A program made the position numbers and the translations under genes. This document shows, piece by piece, positions 5,509 to 62,070 of a DNA stretch of 64,000 nucleotides. Below the pieces are notes generated by a model. It saw nothing but the letters and a program-made list of their open reading frames with translations, made no database searches and had not been told where the DNA came from. Origin of the DNA: a virus; the IMG/VR virus record IMGVR_UViG_3300037087_000150, positions 21,870 to 85,869 of that record; one strand, written 5' to 3'. How positions within the stretch are numbered: position 1 is the first letter of the stretch; each line of letters opens with the position of its first letter.

Positions 5509-6561
5509 TTAAACCGCATACTCAAGAATTTTTCCTGTAAAACTTTTTAATTCAATGCTATCTTCATCTTCACCGAGAATCGTTTCTGGATAAACTGGTA
5601 TTTTTCCATATTTTGTATCAACGATAAATGTTGGAATTGCATATCCACTCGTGAATCCTCTTAATCCAGATATAATTTCAATACCTTTCTTAATAGTTGA
5701 ACGGAAATGAGAAGAACCAAGAATTTTATCACACGCGTAAATATAATATGGACTGACACGAATTTTTAATAATTCGTGCATCAATTTCTTCATGGTTTCA
5801 ACATCATCATTGATCCCCTTTAATAAAACAGTTTGGCTTCTCAATGGAATACCAGCATCGGCTAATTTATTACAAGCGTCAGCACATTCTTTGGTTATTT
5901 CCAACGGATGGATGAAATGGATCGAAATATAAAGAGGGTGATACTTTTTCAACATATCACATAGTTCATCGGTAATCCTTTGTGGCATCACTACGGGAAC
6001 TTTTGTACCAATACGAATCATCTCAACATGATTTATATTCCTGACTTTTTTAAGAATATATTCTAAGCTTTCGGTTGACATTGTTAATGGATCACCACCA
6101 GATATCAAAACATCTCTTATCTCTGTATGATTTCTGATATATTCAATACTATTATCTATTTGTTGTTTTGAATAATTGGTATGTCCACCCACTACTCTTG
6201 ATCGGGTACAATAACGACAATAAGTTGAACAAAAATTTGTTACGGTAAATAACACTCTGTCTGGATATTTGTGAACTAAACAAGTTCCCTTAACACTATG
6301 TGCTTCTTCTTCCAATGGATCTTTGGATTCATCTGGAGAATAAAATCTTTCATTTATTGTGGGAATAACTGTTTTTCTTAATATGCCTGTGGCATCGTTC
6401 TTAATCAAATTAAGAAAATAAGGAGTGATCCTTAGGGGTAGGTTTGAAATATTATCAATCTTTTCTTCTTCTAACAGATCTAATTCTATTTTTAAATCTT
6501 GTAACTTCTTCACGGAGTTGGATAGTTGCCATTTCCAAGACTCCCAATCGTCTGTTTTCAT
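5509..6561 (-). CDS. kamA: Lysine 2,3-aminomutase-family radical SAM enzyme
   Basis: W-x-WQL start, HKYPDRVL, CSTYCRYCTR (CxxxCxxC), LISGGDPL, QTVLLKGIND, LRGFTSGYAIP, terminal GKIP. Confidence 0.93.
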   Translation of the reverse strand: MKTDDWESWKWQLSNSVKKLQDLKIELDLLEEEKIDNISNLPLRITPYFLNLIKNDATGILRKTVIPTINERFYSPDESKDPLEEEAHSVKGTCLVHKYPDRVLFTVTNFCSTYCRYCTRSRVVGGHTNYSKQQIDNSIEYIRNHTEIRDVLISGGDPLTMSTESLEYILKKVRNINHVEMIRIGTKVPVVMPQRITDELCDMLKKYHPLYISIHFIHPLEITKECADACNKLADAGIPLRSQTVLLKGINDDVETMKKLMHELLKIRVSPYYIYACDKILGSSHFRSTIKKGIEIISGLRGFTSGYAIPTFIVDTKYGKIPVYPETILGEDEDSIELKSFTGKILEYAV

Positions 6562-16082: not shown

Positions 16083-17516
16083 TTAAGATTGATTTTCTGA
16101 TTTGAATACCGCTACTCTTTCATTTCCAACATAAACAGACATCAACCATCTCATATGGTATACCTGAATATTCCATCCACCAGCGAAAATGGTATTTGTG
16201 TCGATACGATAAATAACATCATTTGAATCGTAACCAGTGATATGAAATTCAAGACCAGTTCTACGCTTAGAAACATCACCAAATTTAAATTCGTTAATGG
16301 TTGGATATCTGGTTTTTAATTTATAGAATAAAAGATTAAGTTTACCATGTTCTCTATCTTGATAAGCGTCCTGTTGTTCTTTAATATATTTGTTGGTTTC
16401 CCATTCATCCCATCCGAGTAATTTACCTTCAAGAGTTCTTTTATAAAATTCCTCGATATCGTATCCAATTACATTTCCTTTTCTGTCATAATCTTTGACC
16501 GCCCATTTTTCTTCGAATTCTTTTTCAGATAAGGTTTCTTTTTCTTTTCTTATGAAATCTTGTTTTCTTAAAATTTTCTCTTTAATTTCTTCTTTATGTT
16601 CGTCAATTGATGGTTGAATGGCTACTTTTACTTCTTCGATAATTTTTGAATAAACTGAATCTTCAGCGAAATCAATATTCTTTTCACCTGCTTTAGCCAC
16701 ATATTGTTTAACTCTCTTAATTAAATTCAAATATTCACCTTGACTTTCAAGTTCTTTAATTTGTTCTGGATTCAAAAAATTCCAATGATCAACGACATAT
16801 TTAAACATCGAAACATCACTATAAGAAATATGATACATATTCTTGGTCATTCGTGGGCCGATATTAAAAGCACTAACGCCTCTCGCTCTGAAACCATCAA
16901 ATGCGGTTTTTATTCTTTTGAGAATAAGAGTTTTTTCTTCTTCGGTTTTTTCAATAGGTTTAGGTGTTGGGGGTTTGAAATTAATTTTTTTATTGAATCC
17001 AGCCGGGATCTTCAAACCAACTGATGATAATATTTCTTCGAATTTTGGATATTCTATCTTACCATCTTTCAACATTTCCACATAAATTCCGTCATCAAGA
17101 GCTCTCCTGACAGACCTTTTATTTGAATTTGTTTCATCACTTTCGATCTTTTCAAGATCTGACTGGCCGAATATTTTTGAAAGAGTATTGAGATAATCAT
17201 GATAAGTATCCATTACTTCCTTTGGTGCTTGTTTACCATTCGGCCAATTTCCTTCGGCATGCTTTTTAGCCCATTTAATCCATGATCCCGGATATGATTT
17301 TTCATCCTTTTCCTTTTCCTTTTCCATGTATTCATCATAAGTAGTATGATAAACCCCATAATATGAAGAAGGTTTCAGATAATCAGTATTCTTTTTAAGA
17401 AACTTATAAAAGGCTTTCAAAATGGGAGAAACTTTTTCCTTATACTCTGATAAGGTCATGAGATAAGAGGGGGTTGTTTCTGACATGGCTTCGAAAAGTT
17501 TAAAGGTGATTATCAT
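16083..17516 (-). CDS. Hypothetical protein with CTS-like N-terminus (MIITFKLFE), possible virion internal protein
   Basis: Long ORF; start moved to ATG 17516 behind TAATATATA at 17540-17548. Confidence 0.65.
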   Translation of the reverse strand: MIITFKLFEAMSETTPSYLMTLSEYKEKVSPILKAFYKFLKKNTDYLKPSSYYGVYHTTYDEYMEKEKEKDEKSYPGSWIKWAKKHAEGNWPNGKQAPKEVMDTYHDYLNTLSKIFGQSDLEKIESDETNSNKRSVRRALDDGIYVEMLKDGKIEYPKFEEILSSVGLKIPAGFNKKINFKPPTPKPIEKTEEEKTLILKRIKTAFDGFRARGVSAFNIGPRMTKNMYHISYSDVSMFKYVVDHWNFLNPEQIKELESQGEYLNLIKRVKQYVAKAGEKNIDFAEDSVYSKIIEEVKVAIQPSIDEHKEEIKEKILRKQDFIRKEKETLSEKEFEEKWAVKDYDRKGNVIGYDIEEFYKRTLEGKLLGWDEWETNKYIKEQQDAYQDREHGKLNLLFYKLKTRYPTINEFKFGDVSKRRTGLEFHITGYDSNDVIYRIDTNTIFAGGWNIQVYHMRWLMSVYVGNERVAVFKSENQS

Positions 17517-17611
17517 ATTCTTGTCGGAATCTTTTTTCATATATATTAAAAATGAAAACTGAACTACAAATTTACCACATTTATTTGAATTAAAAAATAA
17601 TATATACACTT

Positions 17612-18130
17612 ATGATTACAAAATTTGATAATTTTTTAAAGGAAATAATCGGTAGTGGAGAATTTGCATCGTTTCATAACAAAGCCGGTGAAAATTTCTG
17701 GGGAAATATTGGTGGTGGTGTATTACCAATATGTACTAAAACAGGTAGAATTTTATTACCATTTCGTTCAAGATATGTAAACGAACCGAATACTTGGGGA
17801 GTTTGGGGTGGAAAAATTGATGAAGAACATGGGGAAGCTCAATCAGACATCGAAGAAGTTGTCAAAAGAGAATTTATGGAAGAAGGTGGATTTGACGGCA
17901 ATATTCAATTAATCCCTGCTTATGTTTTTAGAAAAGAAAATGTTTTCACATATTATAACTTCATTGGACTATTAGACCACGAACATCAACCAACATTAGA
18001 TTGGGAAACAGAATCATTCAAATGGGTCACATTTAATGAAATGATGGGTATATCACCAAAACATTTTGGCCTATCTGGATTATTAAAAGACCAGAAATCC
18101 TTACAGACTATTAAAAAATACGCGAGATGA
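17612..18130 (+). CDS. NUDIX hydrolase with CTS-like N-terminus
   Basis: WGVWGGKID...VVKREFMEEGG Nudix box; MITKFDNFLKE. Confidence 0.85.
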   Translation: MITKFDNFLKEIIGSGEFASFHNKAGENFWGNIGGGVLPICTKTGRILLPFRSRYVNEPNTWGVWGGKIDEEHGEAQSDIEEVVKREFMEEGGFDGNIQLIPAYVFRKENVFTYYNFIGLLDHEHQPTLDWETESFKWVTFNEMMGISPKHFGLSGLLKDQKSLQTIKKYAR

Positions 18131-27154: not shown

Positions 27155-27865
27155 ATGGAAAAAACGAACAAAAAAATATTAGTTTCTTTTTCGGGTGGGT
27201 TGGATTCTACTTATCTGGTTTATGATAATTTAAGAAAAGGTAACACTGTTACTGGCTTATATACTACCATAAAAAACAATATAAATAAAATAAGAGTAGA
27301 AACCCATCAAACAAAAAAATTAGGAAAATTATTCAAAGAAGATTTTCCCGGTCAATTTACCTTAGATATGGGAATTGGATTCGATATTCCATCATCAAAT
27401 GATTTGATTTTTAAACAAACTTTAATTTGGTTGGTATCTTTACTATATCATCATTCATCATCATATGACGAAGTTCAAATCGGTGCTGTAATGAATGACG
27501 ATATGATCTCTTTTATAGATGATATTAAAAATATCTGGGAATCTTTCTCTTTTTTAAATCCAAAGCATCCAATTTTAACATTTCCATTGATGAAAAATGG
27601 AAAAGCTCAATTATCTGATTCCTTACCAAAAAAATATAAGGATCTGGTTGTGTTTTGTGAAAATCCAACTATAATAAAAGATTATGGATTACCCGAAGAA
27701 GATAATTTTGAATTTACAAATTGTGGAGAATGCCATTCTTGCAAAAGGTATGAATTCGATAAAGACATATGGAATATAGAATATGGTCAAATTAAAAATT
27801 CGAATGATCCACCATCAGACGATACTCCAGCATCAAACGGTATTCTAATCGGAAAACCAATATAA
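27155..27865 (+). CDS. queC: QueC-like PP-loop ATPase (7-cyano-7-deazaguanine synthase family)
   Basis: SFSGGLDST PP-loop; FC...CGECHSC Zn site; divergent. Confidence 0.65.
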   Translation: MEKTNKKILVSFSGGLDSTYLVYDNLRKGNTVTGLYTTIKNNINKIRVETHQTKKLGKLFKEDFPGQFTLDMGIGFDIPSSNDLIFKQTLIWLVSLLYHHSSSYDEVQIGAVMNDDMISFIDDIKNIWESFSFLNPKHPILTFPLMKNGKAQLSDSLPKKYKDLVVFCENPTIIKDYGLPEEDNFEFTNCGECHSCKRYEFDKDIWNIEYGQIKNSNDPPSDDTPASNGILIGKPI

Positions 27866-29869: not shown

Positions 29870-30667
29870 ATGAAACGAGAAATGACATACAATGTATTTA
29901 TCGATGACAAACTTCGTCCTCTCGATATTTTTTACAAAACAAGTAATCCTTTATATAAGGAACAATTTGTGGTTATCAAATCATACAGTCAATTCACTGA
30001 ACATATCGAAGAACAATTCAAGAAAGAGGGAACTTATCCCGGCTTTATTAGCTTCGATTATTTATTGGCTGATGTCATTATGCAGGTAACAGAGGATTTC
30101 ACTGTTTTTAATAATGAAGAATCCTACACTCCAACTGGTTTTGAATGTGCACAATGGATCGTTGATTTTTGTAAGACAAATAATCTTCCTCTTCCAAAAT
30201 ATAACATTCATGACATGAATCCTACGGGAAGAAGATTAATTTCCAAGGCATTCAACAAATCATCTGTTACAATGACCGCTTCAGATCCTTTCATTGAAAA
30301 AACAACAGTTGTAGTGAAAGATTCGATAACAGAGAATCCGATTCATGAAGTTCCGAAAACGGTAAAACCCGAAAAAACTGAGAAAAAAGCTAATTCAGAA
30401 ACCAAAAAAGCTAATTCCGTAATCAATAAAACTAAGGATAAGGAACTCATAACTGGTATCCTAATTGAAAGTTTAAAGGGTAAATCACTCTCTAAAAAAG
30501 AAATTGATGTTATCCTTATTCCCGAATTTTCAGACAGTTATACACTGAAGCAGAAGAAAACTAAGATTGAAAATATTATGTGGGAACTTAAGCTAAAGGG
30601 TATTATTGTGAATACGGGTACAATTCGTGTTCCATCGTGGAAATTAGTGAAAAAAGAAAAAAAATAA
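29870..30667 (+). CDS. Cyclic-phosphate-processing receiver-like domain fused to a C-terminal winged helix
   Basis: VFIDD..RP, ISFD, TGFECAQWIVDFC, IHDMNPTG; C-terminal LKLKGIIVNTGT...W. Confidence 0.6.
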   Translation: MKREMTYNVFIDDKLRPLDIFYKTSNPLYKEQFVVIKSYSQFTEHIEEQFKKEGTYPGFISFDYLLADVIMQVTEDFTVFNNEESYTPTGFECAQWIVDFCKTNNLPLPKYNIHDMNPTGRRLISKAFNKSSVTMTASDPFIEKTTVVVKDSITENPIHEVPKTVKPEKTEKKANSETKKANSVINKTKDKELITGILIESLKGKSLSKKEIDVILIPEFSDSYTLKQKKTKIENIMWELKLKGIIVNTGTIRVPSWKLVKKEKK

Positions 30668-59236: not shown

Positions 59237-59542
59237 ATGAAAAATATTAAAAATTTTTATCAATACATAAATGAAAATATGGAAATAGACACAAAATATA
59301 AAATTGGTTTAGATGGGTTTATAGAACAAGAATTTCCTTGGGAATGTCCTGATTGCAGTTATGAAATGAACGCGAAGGATATTATTGGTTTTGGTTCTTA
59401 TCCTATTGGTGGTTATAGAAATAGTTTGAAACCAAATTGTGATATTGGGGTTGGATTTGAATGTCCGAAATGTTTTACTAAATCAGTATTTCACGGTAAC
59501 GAATCTGTTTATAAACTTTTTTTAGATGTAAATAAATATTAA
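59237..59542 (+). CDS. Zn-ribbon protein with CTS-like N-terminus
   Basis: MKNIKNFYQYINE; CPDC, CPKC. Confidence 0.6.
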   Translation: MKNIKNFYQYINENMEIDTKYKIGLDGFIEQEFPWECPDCSYEMNAKDIIGFGSYPIGGYRNSLKPNCDIGVGFECPKCFTKSVFHGNESVYKLFLDVNKY

Positions 59543-59567
59543 ACTTTTTCAATAAAAAATGATATAA
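59541..59567 (+). promoter_or_regulatory. Putative middle promoter AAACTTT-N14-ATATAA upstream of ncRNA 1
   Basis: Exact consensus; TAATATATA box also at 59614-59622. Confidence 0.55.
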
Positions 59568-59650
59568 ATTAATCAAATTGATATGGAAATGGAAAAAATT
59601 GACCTTTTTTCCGTAATATATAATTGAAATGTTCTTAAAAATATTGTAAT

Positions 59651-59761
59651 AATCATAGTAGCAATTCGATGGGGTTACTTCGGTTCTGATTGGTTCAACT
59701 CCAATAGAAAGCTGGTGAAAACCTCGCTTTTTAAACACCCCCGAAAAATATCTCTACGATT
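59651..59761 (+). ncRNA. Y RNA-like ncRNA 1 with tRNA T-arm mimic
   Basis: Ends pair (AATC.TAG/CTA.GATT; TTCG..GGGGT/ACCCC.CGAA); GTTACTTCG; ATTGG-TTCAACT-CCAAT; GGT-GAAA-ACC; next to TROVE gene. Confidence 0.7.
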
Positions 59762-59767
59762 TTTTTA

Positions 59768-59794
59768 AAACTTTTATAATATTTTGAGATATAA
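59768..59794 (+). promoter_or_regulatory. Putative middle promoter AAACTTT-N14-ATATAA upstream of ncRNA 2 and 3
   Basis: Exact consensus with no protein gene before the terminator. Confidence 0.55.
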
Positions 59795-59838
59795 TAATGG
59801 ATTATAGTAATAGAAAGTTCTTTAATTTATTGAAATAA

Positions 59839-59930
59839 AAAAGGTAGCGATAAAAGAGTTACTTCGATAATAAGAGAGGGATTCATCCCCCGCATATCAA
59901 CAACAAGACTCTTTTAGGTTTACTCCTTTT
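59839..59930 (+). ncRNA. Y RNA-like ncRNA 2 (minimal)
   Basis: AAAAGG/CCTTTT, TAGCGA, TAAAAGAGT/ACTCTTTTA, TACTTCG, GGGA-TTCA-TCCC. Confidence 0.7.
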
Positions 59931-59942
59931 AATGATATTTAC

Positions 59943-60203
59943 TGATGATAGTGAGATGTAGTGTTACTTCGCATGTACTATGTACATACATATGTAAGAG
60001 CGTCCTATCACTTCACTCTGGAGGGTGAACAAAGGTGATAGGTGGTGTTTTGGATCTCCAAGCCGAAAAAATCCAAGGTATTCATACCATAAATGAAGGT
60101 TTACAGTTTCCTAAGAACTGAGGTTACAAGCATTCCACAAGTTTTGGGTTGATTTAGAGAAAATACCTTAATTTTCTCGTCACACTTATCGTTTTCTTCA
60201 TCA
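59943..60203 (+). ncRNA. Y RNA-like ncRNA 3 (long, multi-helix insert)
   Basis: TGATGA/TCATCA, TAGTGA, GATG.AGTGT/ACACT.TATC, TACTTCG, about 210-nt structured insert. Confidence 0.7.
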
Positions 60204-60275
60204 AATAAATAATACTGATTTCACTCGTGGAGTGAAATCTCGGTTGACCACATTACCGTAAATGTGGTTTAAATT

Positions 60276-60316
60276 AAAAGGGGCTACCGATTGAAAGATT
60301 GATAACCCCTTTTTTT
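60276..60316 (+). terminator. Intrinsic terminator between ncRNA cluster and TROVE gene
   Basis: AAAAGGGG...GAAA...CCCCTTTTTTT. Confidence 0.7.
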
Positions 60317-60357
60317 ATTTTAAATAATTACAAAAAACAAAAAAGAAAGGATTTATT

Positions 60358-61968
60358 ATGGCAAAATTCAACAAACAAAAGACCGTTAATTCTCAAAAGA
60401 CAATTAACTTGGCTGGTGGTATAGCTTACAACGAATCGAGTAAACTCGAACTTATTTCTCTTTTGTTAACTTCATTCGCTCAGAGTAAGTTTTATGAAAA
60501 AGAAGAAAAGACCAATGATAGACTTATTGGTTTAATAGAGAAAAACCAACCTGATTTTGTAGCAAAATCTGCTATTTATGCTCGTAATGAATTCGGTATG
60601 AGATCCATTTCCCATATTACAGCAGCCGAATTAGCTAAGTTTGTTTCAAGTCAATCTTGGGCTAAGAGTTTTTACAATAAGATTATCCGTAGACCAGATG
60701 ATATGACTGAAATTTTGGCTTACTACATGAGTAAGAAAGGTAATAAAATTACCAACTCAATGAAGAAAGGTTTCGGAGAAGCTTTTTCAAAATTCGACGC
60801 TTATCAACTTGGTAAATACAGAGGTGAGGGTAAGGATTTCAAATTAGTTGACTTAGCTAATCTTGTTCACCCATCTCCAGTACAGGGTGATAAATATATG
60901 GTTGATGTAAACCGTAAGGAATACATGGACATCATGAAGAAAAAAATAGAAGTTTCTACCCAGAAGAAAAATAAAGATATTTCTGGATTGAAAGAAAAAC
61001 TATCTTGGGCAGAAAAACAAGAAGGTGAAACTATAAAAATTCACGCTCTTGAAGCACTTGTAATTGATTTACTTCGCAGTAAAGGTACTTGGGAATCTGA
61101 ATTGTCCAAAGCCGGTCAAATGGCCAAAAACGATGAGGAAAAAGAGTCCTTTAAGAAAGAAGTTTGGACAAATCTTCTAAATGAACGTAAAATCGGTTAC
61201 TTTGCTTTACTTCGTAATCTCAGAAATATTGTCGAACAAGCTCCTGATATGGTTGACAAGGCTTGTGAATTGTTAACTGATAAAAAGTTAATCAAAAATT
61301 CATTAGTACTTCCATTCAGATTCCTTGTAGCCTACAAAGAATTACAGGAATTGAGTTATTCTAACTCAGATTTCAGAAAGATTTTAGTAGCTATTAATCA
61401 AGCAGCTGAAATATCACTGGATAATGTTCCTAAGTTCGCTGGTAGAACATTAGTTGTTCTTGACACCTCTGGATCTATGACAACTTGTTACATAGCAAAG
61501 AGTAAGGTCACCTGTGCTGAAGCTGGTGCTCAGTTCGCTGGTGCCATCGCTAAGAGAAACAGTTGTGATTTAATGAGATTCGATGACAGAGCGGAATATA
61601 AGTTTTACAACCCTTCTGATAGTCTTATGACTATTTCAGGTATCTACAAATTCGCAAGTGCTGGAACAGATTTCAGAACAATTTTCAGAACAGCGAATAA
61701 AGCTTATGACAGAATCATAATCTTATCGGATATGCAGGGTTGGGTTGGTGGTGGTGCACCGACAGCTGACTTTAAATCATACTGTGAGAAATTCAATTGT
61801 CAACCACATATTTATTCATTTAATTTGAATGATTATGGTACATTGATGTTCCCAGAAAATAAAGTCTACGCTTTAGCTGGATTCTCTGATAAAGTATTTG
61901 AAATAATGGCTTTATTGGAAACAGATAGACAAGCTTTAATTCACAAAATCGAAGCAGTCGAATTATAA
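60358..61968 (+). CDS. rsr: Ro60/TROVE-domain RNA-binding protein with vWA domain
   Basis: NLAGGIAY, AIYARNEFGMRS, RRPDD, FDAYQLGKY, TWESELS, ALLRNLRNI, PFRF, MIDAS DTSGS, IILSD, GFSDKVF. Confidence 0.95.
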   Translation: MAKFNKQKTVNSQKTINLAGGIAYNESSKLELISLLLTSFAQSKFYEKEEKTNDRLIGLIEKNQPDFVAKSAIYARNEFGMRSISHITAAELAKFVSSQSWAKSFYNKIIRRPDDMTEILAYYMSKKGNKITNSMKKGFGEAFSKFDAYQLGKYRGEGKDFKLVDLANLVHPSPVQGDKYMVDVNRKEYMDIMKKKIEVSTQKKNKDISGLKEKLSWAEKQEGETIKIHALEALVIDLLRSKGTWESELSKAGQMAKNDEEKESFKKEVWTNLLNERKIGYFALLRNLRNIVEQAPDMVDKACELLTDKKLIKNSLVLPFRFLVAYKELQELSYSNSDFRKILVAINQAAEISLDNVPKFAGRTLVVLDTSGSMTTCYIAKSKVTCAEAGAQFAGAIAKRNSCDLMRFDDRAEYKFYNPSDSLMTISGIYKFASAGTDFRTIFRTANKAYDRIIILSDMQGWVGGGAPTADFKSYCEKFNCQPHIYSFNLNDYGTLMFPENKVYALAGFSDKVFEIMALLETDRQALIHKIEAVEL

Positions 61969-61989
61969 CGGGAGTACACCATACGAAGT

Positions 61990-62057
61990 GTCCCTGAAGA
62001 AATTCAAACATTCGGTGGAATGTGTACTCACCCGATAGTCCCTGAAGAAATTCAAAC
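61990..62057 (+). repeat. 20-nt direct repeat GTCCCTGAAGAAATTCAAAC (61990-62009, 62038-62057) capping two hairpins
   Basis: Exact duplication with different outer stems. Confidence 0.85.
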
Positions 62058-62070
62058 TATCGGGTTTTTT
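62030..62070 (+). terminator. Intrinsic terminator of TROVE gene
   Basis: ACCCGATAGT...ACTATCGGGT then T tract. Confidence 0.8.

What the first reader, a model, noticed from the sequence alone, without database searches (positions are those of the whole stretch)
59651..61968. Ro60 gene with three modular Y RNA-like ncRNAs: shared scaffold, different cargo domains
Seen: the roughly 800-nt gene-free region before the TROVE gene holds three elements (59651-59761, 59839-59930, 59943-60203). Each reads stem1-TAG(C/T)(A/G)A-stem2 ending GT-TACTTCG-[insert]-stem2'-short loop ending CT-stem1'. Stem sequences differ completely between copies yet still pair (e.g. TAAAAGAGT/ACTCTTTTA, AGTGT/ACACT, GGGGT/ACCCC), which is covariation, while loop motifs are kept. 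Inserts are about 50, 40 and 210 nt; only the first has a canonical T-arm (5 bp + TTCAACT). Phage promoter motifs precede elements 1 and 2 and a terminator follows. Known: bacterial Ro60 (Rsr) binds adjacent Y RNAs, YrlA RNAs mimic tRNA, and Y RNA tethers Rsr to PNPase in Deinococcus. Inference: this phage builds several Ro RNPs with interchangeable effector RNA domains, e.g. decoys for host tRNA/RNA-cleaving defences or tethers for host enzymes.
Basis: partly seen in the sequence, partly recalled or inferred. Interest (0 to 1): 0.88.

Follow-up and report, generated by a model that had tools for sequence, protein, structure and literature searches.

The report
Three Y RNAs beside phage Ro60
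A large phage carries a Ro60 (TROVE) gene preceded by three small RNA genes that share one Ro60-type docking stem but carry different inner domains; this is a sound catch of a known kind of RNA-protein system, from a branch that standard RNA annotation misses.

Summary
Window 59652-59760, 59839-59930 and 59943-60203 (+) are three RNA elements on one scaffold. The scaffold is: stem 1, a bulged U, two pairs (RG with CY), an internal loop (YRA opposite AWUUUU), stem 2, then UUACUUCG and a variable insert.

A covariance model built from 39 short homologues finds 321 matches at E<0.001 beside TROVE genes in 212 viral, metagenomic and genome loci. All 321 lie on the TROVE strand, and all but two lie upstream of the gene. 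All 17 scaffold pairs show compensatory changes: 91% of cells are paired against 62% in shuffles.

Relatives carry full tRNA-like YrlA RNAs on the same scaffold, with sub-threshold RF02553 matches. UAGCGA corresponds to the published GNCGAA Ro60 motif, and UUAC to the published YUAY.

So these are Y RNAs of the YrlA/YrlB lineage. Element 1 is a YrlA without a D-arm, element 2 a minimal hairpin, and element 3 a 261-nt multi-hairpin form.

Several Y RNAs per Ro60 locus, phage-encoded Ro60 with upstream Y RNAs, and Y RNA modularity are all in print. Earlier reports of this scan also found tandem Y RNAs on other DNA. Decoy or tether functions and Ro60 binding remain untested.

Verdict: new member of a known kind, of moderate interest.

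The parts
59631..59636 (+). GTTCTT box 15 nt upstream of element 1. It may be a promoter or leader motif; its function is not shown.
   Evidence: Sequence. The same box lies 14-28 nt upstream of 28 of 108 array-initial model matches and of 0 of 42 internal ones. Background is 0.02 per 45 nt.
59652..59760 (+). Y RNA element 1, a YrlA-like RNA without a D-arm. Layout: stem 1 (59652-58 with 59754-60); bulged U 59659; AG with CU (59660-61 with 59752-53); CAA opposite AAAUAU; stem 2; UUACUUCG (59675-82); insert; T-run 59760-66.
   Evidence: Conserved in 6 of 6 close relatives, with compensatory changes in both stems.
59689..59705 (+). T-arm of element 1: 5-bp stem and 7-nt loop UUCAACU, with a G53-C61-type closing pair.
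   Evidence: pairs 39-55 to 43-51 are kept in 6 of 6 relatives, one of them with changes on both sides.
59706..59732 (+). Hairpin that abuts the T-arm with no linker, like the YrlA acceptor-like 'AS' stem. Its apex is GGU-GAAA-ACC.
   Evidence: The apical stem changes with compensation among relatives: GGU/ACC, GC/GC, CGC/GCG.
59817..59822 (+). GTTCTT box 16 nt upstream of element 2. It is conserved in all 6 close relatives.
   Evidence: (columns 297-303).
59839..59930 (+). Y RNA element 2: the minimal scaffold with a 41-nt insert that holds a small G/C hairpin.
   Evidence: Model R1 scores 50.9 bits, E=4e-10. It was part of the seed, so this match is by construction. Its orthologues in L001, L005, L085, L006 and L007 score 43.7-58.3 bits; those of L001, L005 and L085 were also seed rows, while those of L006 (54.1 bits) and L007 (43.7 bits) were not.
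59943..60203 (+). Y RNA element 3: the same scaffold enclosing a 210-nt domain of at least five hairpins. ACUUCG can pair with a distal YGRGGU, closing the domain.
   Evidence: Five orthologues; 88.7% of cells paired against 78.7% in shuffles; 24 of 55 pairs with changes on both sides; 0 of 500 shuffles as high.
60217..60268 (+). Two further hairpins (60217-60239 and about 60247-60268) between element 3 and the terminator. They vary among relatives.
60280..60316 (+). Intrinsic-terminator-like hairpin plus a T7 run, 41 nt before the TROVE start codon.
   Evidence: z = -5.14; 0 of 200 shuffles fold as well. A hairpin and T-run stand at the same place in all 6 relatives.
60358..61968 (+). Ro60/Rsr-type gene, 536 aa: TROVE ring plus a vWA domain with the MIDAS residues D369-x-S371-x-S373, T437 and D458.
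   Evidence: The nearest solved structure is the Thermus phage phiLo Ro60 (9KOP/9L5Y, E=1.6e-19).

Best explanation
The 815-base gap between the terminase operon and the Ro60 (TROVE) gene of this large phage encodes three Y RNAs. These are the small RNAs that dock on Ro60 rings.

**Shown**
- All three share a covariation-supported scaffold, conserved across the family. It runs: terminal stem, bulged U, R-G/C-Y pairs, an internal loop of YRA opposite AWUUUU, a second stem of 7-10 bp, and an invariant UACUUC.
- This scaffold recurs in arrays on the TROVE strand, almost always upstream of TROVE genes, in phages and in mostly Bacteroidota genomes.
- In relatives the same scaffold carries complete tRNA-like YrlA domains.

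**Inferred**
- The bulged-helix and internal-loop region is the Ro60 binding site. UAGCGA is the local form of the published GNCGAA/GGUCCGA motif.
- The invariant UUACUUCG corresponds to the published YUAY junction plus the first strand of the variable-arm stem.
- The phage Ro60 binds and stabilises all three RNAs.
- The inner modules give the three particles different partners. Element 1 offers a T-arm stacked on an acceptor-like hairpin, aimed at proteins that read the tRNA elbow or at PNPase. Element 2 is a minimal gate or competitor. Element 3 offers a large multi-hairpin surface for an unknown partner.
- The likely output is re-direction or damping of host RNA decay and RNA quality control during infection, as in the Deinococcus Ro60-Y RNA-PNPase machine and the phiLo phage complex.
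- Element 1 probably ends at its own stem plus T-run. Elements 2 and 3 lie 12 nt apart and are probably co-transcribed, ending at 60280-60316.
For: **The repeat is not chance.** GTTACTTCG occurs three times forward in 85.9 kb, 0 times in reverse and 0 times in the control. The orthologous locus L001 has the same three elements, and 0 of 200 shuffles reach its count.

**The scaffold goes with TROVE genes.** Model R1 finds matches at E<0.001 as follows:
- 177 in 100 sources
- 76 in 42 sources
- 68 in 70 GTDB loci

Every one of these 321 is on the + strand, which is the TROVE strand. All are upstream except L072:4245 and L187:1694. Of 88 sources among the best 150 matches, 42 hold two to five copies.

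**Covariation.** 91.3% of cells are paired against 61.9% in shuffles and 42-56% in slid controls. There are 712 cells with changes on both sides against 241. All 17 of 17 pairs are compensated.

**A script-based control.** When the 5' halves were swapped, the scaffold closed in 3 of 639 trials against 70 of 213 real cases for short inserts. For 150-450-nt inserts the figures were 34 of 639 against 40 of 213.

**Link to YrlA.**
- L009:1882-2011, L011 and L013 carry V, T, AS and D arms inside the same scaffold.
- RF02553 scores 44.8 and 33.2 bits in L009.
- Chen et al. 2014 define GNCGAAN0-1G and YUAY. Their Bacteroidetes example contains GCUACUUCG.

**The protein is a Ro60.**

**The locus is phage-borne.** The large terminase gene lies directly upstream here and in L001, L005, L006 and L007. 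A 634,780-bp phage record also has an R1 element (57.4 bits) upstream of its TROVE match.
Against: - No experiment or read data here show that the RNAs are made as discrete species or bind the protein.
- None of the three elements matches Rfam YrlA or Y_RNA, even at E<=10.
- Elements 1 and 3 are not found whole by R1. Only the 5' half of element 3 is found, at 20.3 bits.
- Single-sequence folding of element 1 is no better than shuffles: z = -1.03, with 27 of 200 shuffles folding as well.
- No D-arm exists in any of the three, so full tRNA mimicry is absent.
- The exact GNCGAA motif is not met. The elements have GCAA, GCGA and GUGA.
- The A3 alignment was fitted to the model, which inflates pairing counts.
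- No RtcB or RNA ligase gene was found in the 85.9 kb held. The usual RNA-repair neighbourhood is therefore not seen, though the record is estimated at only 14% complete.
Confidence: 0.85

Rival explanations
1. The structured region is mainly a cis-acting leader of the TROVE mRNA. Ro60 would bind its own upstream Y-like stems and control read-through of the terminator at 60280-60316. The RNAs would then be autoregulatory elements and not free particles.
For: All elements lie upstream on the TROVE strand. A terminator stands 41 nt before the start codon, and no convincing promoter was found between it and the gene. In M. smegmatis the Y RNAs upstream of rsr are processed from one precursor (PMC4201824, passage).
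Against: - Element 1 ends in its own stem plus T7 run, and a conserved box re-appears before element 2. This suggests separate units.
- In other species Y RNAs lie downstream of rsr and act in trans (PMC4201824).
- Two family members lie downstream of TROVE (L072, L187).
- This rival is not exclusive of the main reading.
Confidence: 0.08
2. The RNAs act without Ro60, as tRNA-like decoys or substrates. They might act on anticodon nucleases, tRNA-modifying enzymes or RNase P, and merely sit beside the TROVE gene.
For: Element 1 has a canonical T-arm. Relatives carry full tRNA-like domains and real tRNA genes in the same arrays. Earlier reports of this scan describe YrlA-like RNAs in phages without Ro60 (unchecked notes).
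Against: - The part conserved in all copies is the bulged-helix scaffold and UACUUC, not the tRNA-like part. Of the best 150 model matches, 78 are only 60-69 nt long and have no tRNA features.
- Elements 2 and 3 have no T-arm or D-arm.
- The strict linkage to TROVE genes argues for a shared partner.
Confidence: 0.05
3. Chance repeats, terminators or decayed tRNA genes with no function.
For: The region is AT-rich (23-39% G+C), where hairpins are common. Element 1 folds no better than shuffles.
Against: - Motif counts exceed the controls.
- There are 321 model matches, with complete strand bias and near-complete position bias.
- Compensatory changes occur in every scaffold pair and in the inner hairpins of elements 1 and 3.
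Confidence: 0.02

Closest known systems
YrlA and YrlB of Salmonella Typhimurium and Mycobacterium smegmatis (Rfam RF02553; Chen et al. 2014, PMC4201824; structure preprint 10.1101/312249)
   Same: - Encoded next to the Ro60/rsr gene on the same strand.
- Two or more RNAs per locus.
- The 5' and 3' ends pair into a stem that holds a purine-rich CGA(A)-type motif.
- A YUAY junction (here UUAC).
- A T-arm followed directly by a closed acceptor-like hairpin (element 1).
- A second, simpler hairpin RNA (element 2, like YrlB).
   Different: - No D-arm in any of the three.
- The motif is UAGYRA with a bulged U instead of GNCGAAN0-1G.
- There is an invariant UACUUC.
- RF02553 does not detect them at E<=10.
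- A third member of 261 nt has a multi-hairpin domain.
- The locus is on a phage beside the terminase gene, not in an rsr-rtcBA repair operon.
Thermus phage phiLo Ro60 with Yrl1 and Yrl2 (PMC12135203; PDB 9KOP, 9L5Y)
   Same: - A phage-encoded Ro60 with several Y RNA-like genes directly upstream.
- It is the nearest solved relative of this protein (E=1.6e-19).
- The paper shows binding and recruitment of host PNPase. That is the working model adopted here.
   Different: - The phage, host phylum and RNA sequences differ.
- phiLo has two RNAs, found by a CGAA motif. Here there are three, with a family-wide covariation-supported scaffold and one long member.
- Nothing is tested biochemically here.
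Deinococcus radiodurans Yrn1/Yrn2 and the Rsr-Y RNA-PNPase (RYPER) machine
   Same: - A modular Y RNA: Ro-binding stem plus effector module.
- Yrn1 has a T-arm-like loop but no full D-arm, like element 1.
- There are several Y RNAs upstream of rsr.
   Different: The Ro-binding helix of Yrn1 resembles the animal GGUCCGA helix. No sequence similarity to the elements here was detected.
YrlA predicted in Bacteroidetes (Fibrisoma limi and others; Chen et al. 2014, supplementary figure S1 and table S1)
   Same: It is from the phylum that supplies most relatives of this TROVE clade. The drawn RNA contains GCUACUUCG, the motif that is invariant in this family.
   Different: Only the tRNA-like member was reported there. 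The minimal and long members, the arrays and the phage copies were not described in the text and supplements I could search.

Membership tests
Ro60 / Rsr (TROVE) protein | TROVE (HEAT-repeat ring) domain followed by a vWA domain | tested here: met
   PF05731 E=1.6e-21 and PF25045 E=1.1e-7, both over their cut-offs. phrog_850 E=1.5e-44.
Ro60 / Rsr (TROVE) protein | MIDAS residues DxSxS...T...D in the vWA domain | tested here: met
   D369, S371, S373, T437 and D458 are invariant in 21 aligned homologues. Naming these residues as the MIDAS motif rests on my own knowledge.
Ro60 / Rsr (TROVE) protein | Sequence homology to solved Ro60 structures | tested here: met
   - 9KOP/9L5Y: E=1.6e-19
- 9NEN (named RNA-binding protein RO60 in the entry): E=1.1e-6
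- 1YVP (60-kDa SS-A/Ro ribonucleoprotein): E=1.8e-5
- 2NVO (Rsr): E=5.8e-5

All.
Y RNA (Ro60-associated ncRNA, general) | Encoded close to the Ro60 gene on the same strand | tested here: met
   The elements lie 155-706 nt upstream of the start codon on the + strand. The same holds for 319 of 321 family matches.
Y RNA (Ro60-associated ncRNA, general) | The 5' and 3' ends pair into a long stem interrupted by a conserved bulge or internal loop (the Ro60 site) | tested here: met
   helix 1 is 97.6% paired, with a bulged U (123 of 143) and conserved loop letters. For the window's elements.
Y RNA (Ro60-associated ncRNA, general) | Bound and stabilised by Ro60 | not testable with these tools
   Needs RIP, EMSA or a deletion strain.
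Y RNA (Ro60-associated ncRNA, general) | Accumulates as a discrete small RNA | tested here: inconclusive
   The only RNA-library contig that fits lies inside the TROVE ORF (60410-60560). Nothing lies on the RNA region. Contigs cannot show absence.
YrlA (Rfam RF02553) | Score at or above the Rfam gathering threshold (69 bits) | tested here: not met
   - 0 matches at gathering in the window.
- No YrlA match at E<=10 in 59500-60400.
- In the whole record the only match is 18.1 bits, at two tRNA genes.
- Relatives reach 44.8 bits.
YrlA (Rfam RF02553) | GNCGAAN0-1G motif near the 5' end | tested here: not met
   The elements have UAGCAAU, UAGCGAU and UAGUGAG. The family consensus is U-R-G-Y-R-A. 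It is similar in place and purine content but does not fit the published pattern.
YrlA (Rfam RF02553) | Conserved YUAY at the start of the variable loop | tested here: met
   UUAC is present in all three elements. U26, A27 and C28 are invariant or nearly so in 143 sequences.
YrlA (Rfam RF02553) | T-arm with a tRNA-like loop | tested here: met
   Element 1 only: ATTGG-UUCAACU-CCAAU. Elements 2 and 3 have none.
YrlA (Rfam RF02553) | D-arm (AGCUCAGU.GGUAGAGC-like) after the acceptor-like hairpin | tested here: not met
   Absent from all three elements and from element 1 of all 6 close relatives. Present in more distant relatives.

The most novel reading that the evidence does not exclude
The bulged-U/RG-CY/internal-loop stem plus the invariant UACUUC may be a distinct Ro60 recognition code. 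It would define a large Y RNA family, invisible to Rfam, in Bacteroidota and their phages. Most members of this family are bare hairpins of 60-70 nt and not tRNA mimics.

Within it, this huge-phage clade would have dropped the D-arm and evolved a 261-nt Y RNA (element 3). The covariation-supported multi-hairpin domain of element 3, with repeated single-stranded RGGUU linkers, would tether or sponge a host factor not so far linked to Ro60.
Probability: 0.3. Interest if true: 0.6.

Novelty: new member of a known kind. Interest (0 to 1): 0.4.

Why it matters
**Annotation.** Current pipelines would leave this 815-base gap, and hundreds like it, empty. Rfam's YrlA model misses the whole branch at its threshold. 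The model built here recovers 321 copies with complete strand specificity, which is ready material for a new Rfam family or an extended seed.

**Biology.**
- Huge phages of probably Bacteroidota hosts carry a complete Ro60 particle kit next to their terminase gene.
- The tRNA-like part of Y RNAs turns out to be dispensable in most members of this branch.
- The invariant UACUUC and the bulged helix are concrete, mutable targets for asking how bacterial and phage Ro60 recognise their RNAs.

The general idea of modular Y RNAs, several per locus and also in phages, is already established.

Tried and rejected
**RNA libraries.**
- One peat metatranscriptome run holds a single 151-nt contig identical to 60410-60560, inside the TROVE ORF.
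- Two other runs only touch 62031-62068.
- Nothing lies on 59652-60203.
- Contigs cannot show absence, strand or ends, so this says nothing about whether the RNAs are expressed.

**Rfam.**
- At E<=10 on 59500-60400 there were five weak matches. The best was BTnc231 at 23.5 bits against a threshold of 80.4, over the trailing hairpins and terminator. I treat all five as chance.
- A gathering-level scan of 20 relatives gave only tRNA hits.

**ARAGORN.** No tRNA in the window.

**Phage GenBank collection, DNA search.** Only one distant hit.

**My first two scripted searches for the closing stems.** They picked many spurious partners. A stricter version and a swapped-5'-half control replaced them.

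**An H-type pseudoknot in element 3 (138-140 with 147-149 of alignment A5).** No pair had changes on both sides (helix 6). Dropped.

**Long inserts of more distant loci (L047, L026, L078 and others).** They show no evident similarity to the insert of element 3. I did not establish homology.

**A hidden ORF.**
- Code 11 gives only an 86-aa minus-strand frame with no Pfam match.
- TAG=Q gives nothing longer.

**RtcB and RNA-ligase genes.** Not found in the 85.9 kb held. The record is a fragment, so this is no evidence of absence.

**Sigma-70-type promoter scan.** Fewer sites than in shuffles. It is not informative for a probable Bacteroidota phage.
Full report
**What is there**

The window is part of an 85,869-base viral record. 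It has large-phage genes: a fused type II topoisomerase, GroEL, a RecA-like protein, a DnaB-like helicase, ribonucleotide reductase, a baseplate protein and a large terminase.

The ORF 60358-61968 (+) is a Ro60/Rsr protein. It matches TROVE (E=1.6e-21) and the Ro60 vWA domain (E=1.1e-7), and the MIDAS-type residues are invariant in 21 homologues. Its nearest solved relative is the Ro60 of Thermus phage phiLo (E=1.6e-19).

Between the small ORF that ends at 59542 and this gene lie 815 bases. They hold no credible reading frame under code 11 or with TAG read as Q.

**The observation**

GTTACTTCG occurs three times in the whole record. All three are on the + strand within 300 bases, with zero on the other strand and zero for the control pattern.

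Reading the sequence gives three elements:
- 59652-59760
- 59839-59930
- 59943-60203

Each has a terminal stem, TAG(C/T)(A/G)A, a second stem ending in GT, TACTTCG, an insert of 54, 41 or 210 nt, the return strand of stem 2, a short loop ending in CT, and the return strand of stem 1.

Element 1 holds a textbook T-arm, ATTGG-TTCAACT-CCAAT (59689-59705). A hairpin with a T7 run follows at 60280-60316.

Single-sequence folding is only weakly informative: z = -1.0, -2.0 and -2.4 for the three elements. The case therefore rests on comparison with other sequences.

**Relatives**

The protein has about a dozen relatives at 64-82% identity and thousands at about 50%. I fetched the DNA around 80 viral, 80 metagenomic and 70 genome-derived homologues. 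The named genomes are mostly Bacteroidota (Saprospiraceae, Chitinophagales, Flavobacteriia, Cyclobacteriaceae), with a few Anaerolineae and others.

The close relatives L001, L005, L006, L007 and L085 have the same locus. Four of them (L001, L005, L006, L007) have the terminase gene directly upstream, as here. L085 begins too close to the RNAs for its upstream gene to be seen.
- Element 1 is present in 6 of 6.
- Element 2 is present in 6 of 6.
- Element 3 is present in 5 of 6 (deleted in L006).

A 634,780-base phage record also has a scaffold element upstream of its TROVE match.

**The scaffold**

In 142 distinct upstream regions there are 213 TACTTCG sites. Nearly all are preceded at a fixed distance by a TRGYRA-type motif.

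An alignment of 39 short elements let RNAalifold find stem 1 together with two further pairs. The R-G of the motif pairs with the C-Y that ends the 3' loop, and AG/CU alternates with GG/CC.

The true architecture is therefore:
- stem 1
- a bulged U
- two pairs
- an asymmetric internal loop (YRA opposite AWUUUU)
- stem 2
- UUACUUCG

I built a covariance model from this alignment (R1). At E<0.001 it finds:
- 177 matches in 100 sources
- 76 matches in 42 sources
- 68 matches in 70 genome loci

All 321 are on the strand of the TROVE gene, and all but two lie upstream of it. Among the best 150 matches, 42 of 88 sources hold two to five copies.

On the model-derived alignment:
- 91.3% of cells are paired, against 61.9% in shuffles and 42-56% when partners are slid.
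- 712 cells carry changes on both sides, against 241.
- All 17 pairs show compensation.
- 0 of 500 shuffles reach the observed score.

The alignment is fitted to the model, so these numbers lean towards the structure. The size of the effect and the model-free RNAalifold result agree, however.

A separate scripted control swapped the 5' halves among elements. The scaffold then closed in 3 of 639 trials, against 70 of 213 real cases for short inserts. For inserts of 150-450 nt the figures were 34 of 639 against 40 of 213. Long-insert members are therefore real as a class, though individual calls are less sure.

UACUUC is invariant or nearly so in 143 distinct sequences.

**What it is**

Chen et al. 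2014 (PMC4201824; passages, section 6 and supplements read) define bacterial YrlA RNAs by several features:
- a GNCGAAN0-1G motif in the 5' strand of the terminal stem, proposed as the Ro60 site
- a conserved YUAY that begins the variable loop
- then a T-arm, a closed acceptor-like hairpin and a D-arm

They report such RNAs next to Ro60 in 254 bacteria and 22 phages, Bacteroidetes included. Their drawing of the Fibrisoma limi RNA contains GCUACUUCG.

In my loci the same scaffold carries complete YrlA domains. An example is L009:1882-2011, with AUAGG-UUCGAAU-CCUAU, an acceptor-like hairpin and GCUC-AGUUGGUA-GAGC. Rfam's YrlA model scores these at 44.8 and 33.2 bits over its full length, below its 69-bit threshold.

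UAGCGA is therefore the local form of GNCGAA, and UUAC is the YUAY. The following UUCG is the first strand of the variable-arm stem:
- In short members it pairs with a YGAA just before a conserved AAAACAC (my reading of the sequences printed, not counted).
- In element 1, ACUUCGGU can close on a UUCG loop.
- In element 3, ACUUCG pairs with a distal YGRGGU (no covariation is possible because the motif never varies).

The three elements are thus Y RNAs of the YrlA/YrlB lineage.

*Element 1* keeps the variable loop, the T-arm and an abutting hairpin. The apical stem of that hairpin changes with compensation (GGU/ACC, GC/GC, CGC/GCG). It has no D-arm, and neither does any of the six close relatives. 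None of the three elements reaches Rfam YrlA even at E<=10.

*Element 2* is the minimal form that makes up most of the family. Of the best 150 matches, 78 are 60-69 nt long.

*Element 3* encloses a 210-nt domain of at least five hairpins. Across five orthologues, 24 of 55 pairs carry changes on both sides against 13.3 expected, 88.7% of cells are paired against 78.7%, and 0 of 500 shuffles reach the score. Conserved GGU(U) stretches follow three of the hairpins. I found no family for this domain and no clear likeness to the long inserts of more distant loci.

**How it probably works**

Shown: the RNA structures, their conservation, and their linkage to TROVE genes.

Inferred from the Xenopus, Deinococcus, Salmonella and phiLo systems (10.1101/312249, passages; PMC12135203, abstract and passages):
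- The phage Ro60 ring docks on the bulged helix and internal loop, and stabilises the RNAs.
- The inner modules bring different partners to the ring or block its cavity.
- PNPase is the best precedent for a partner. In phiLo the Ro60-Yrl complex binds host PNPase and lowers its activity.
- Element 1 offers a tRNA-elbow-like half. Element 3 offers a large new surface.

The invariant UACUUC is found even in members with no tRNA features. It is therefore either a second protein contact or a structural junction, and mutagenesis would tell which.

On transcription, element 1 ends in its own stem plus a T-run. A GTTCTT box lies 15-16 nt before elements 1 and 2 but not before element 3. Across the family the box precedes 28 of 108 array-initial copies and 0 of 42 internal ones. 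Two transcription units are likely, but whether the box is a promoter is open.

**What is not supported**

The decoy-against-defence idea is untested. The claim of novelty does not hold, because modular Y RNAs, several per locus, in phages, upstream of Ro60, are all in print. Earlier reports of this scan also describe tandem Y RNA arrays beside Ro60 on other DNA (unchecked notes).

New here:
- the phage clade itself
- a Y RNA branch that Rfam misses at its threshold
- the refined docking motif
- loss of the D-arm in this clade
- the long third member

Literature searches behind this judgement.

**Verdict**

This is a new member of a known kind, with interest 0.4.

Noticed in passing
own record G000:C1 about 17495-17566 and 17610-17682 (+), upstream of the window (locus L237:1485-1556 and 1600-1672): Two tandem tRNA genes with anticodon CUA (amber suppressors). 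ARAGORN labels them tRNA-Pyl; Rfam tRNA scores 53.2 and 47.5 bits. They hint that this large phage may read TAG as a sense codon in some genes.
   Followed up: partly
window 61987-62010 and 62035-62058 (+): Right after the TROVE stop codon lie two hairpins with an identical 18-nt apical part but different stems, the second followed by a T-run. They are not present in relatives. Metatranscriptome contigs with unlike flanks match 62031-62068.
   Followed up: partly
window 59591-59612 (+): An A/U-rich inverted repeat (GGAAAAAA, a 6-nt loop, TTTTTTCC) followed by AATATATAA. Stem and tail are largely kept in all 6 close relatives while the loop varies (columns 52-90). It could be the terminator of the upstream ORF or part of the promoter region of element 1.
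   Followed up: no
window 29870-30664 (+): A 265-aa protein with a cREC_REC domain (PF20274, cyclic-phosphate processing receiver domain, E=7.6e-10). From recollection, this domain has been linked to RNA-repair systems. It is a possible functional companion of the Ro60 locus, 30 kb away.
   Followed up: no
loci L009, L023, L130, L146 and others, upstream of TROVE: Genuine tRNA genes are interleaved with the Y RNA arrays in several relatives, for example three in L130 and one in L009 between two YrlA-type elements. This fits the published idea that YrlA arose from tRNA transcripts.
   Followed up: no
loci L025, L026, L047, L061, L078, L079 and relatives, second element of the array: A recurrent class of scaffold elements (GCAAACA-TAGCGA-TAGNTTGAG-ATACTTCG ... 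TGTTTGC) has inserts of 180-220 nt and no Rfam match in the three of them scanned (L025, L026, L047). It is a second, unrelated long Y RNA type.
   Followed up: partly
window 27155-27862 (+): A QueC-like queuosine-biosynthesis protein (phrog_1550, E=8.2e-22), and a radical-SAM protein at 5509-6558. They suggest base-modification genes in this phage.
   Followed up: no
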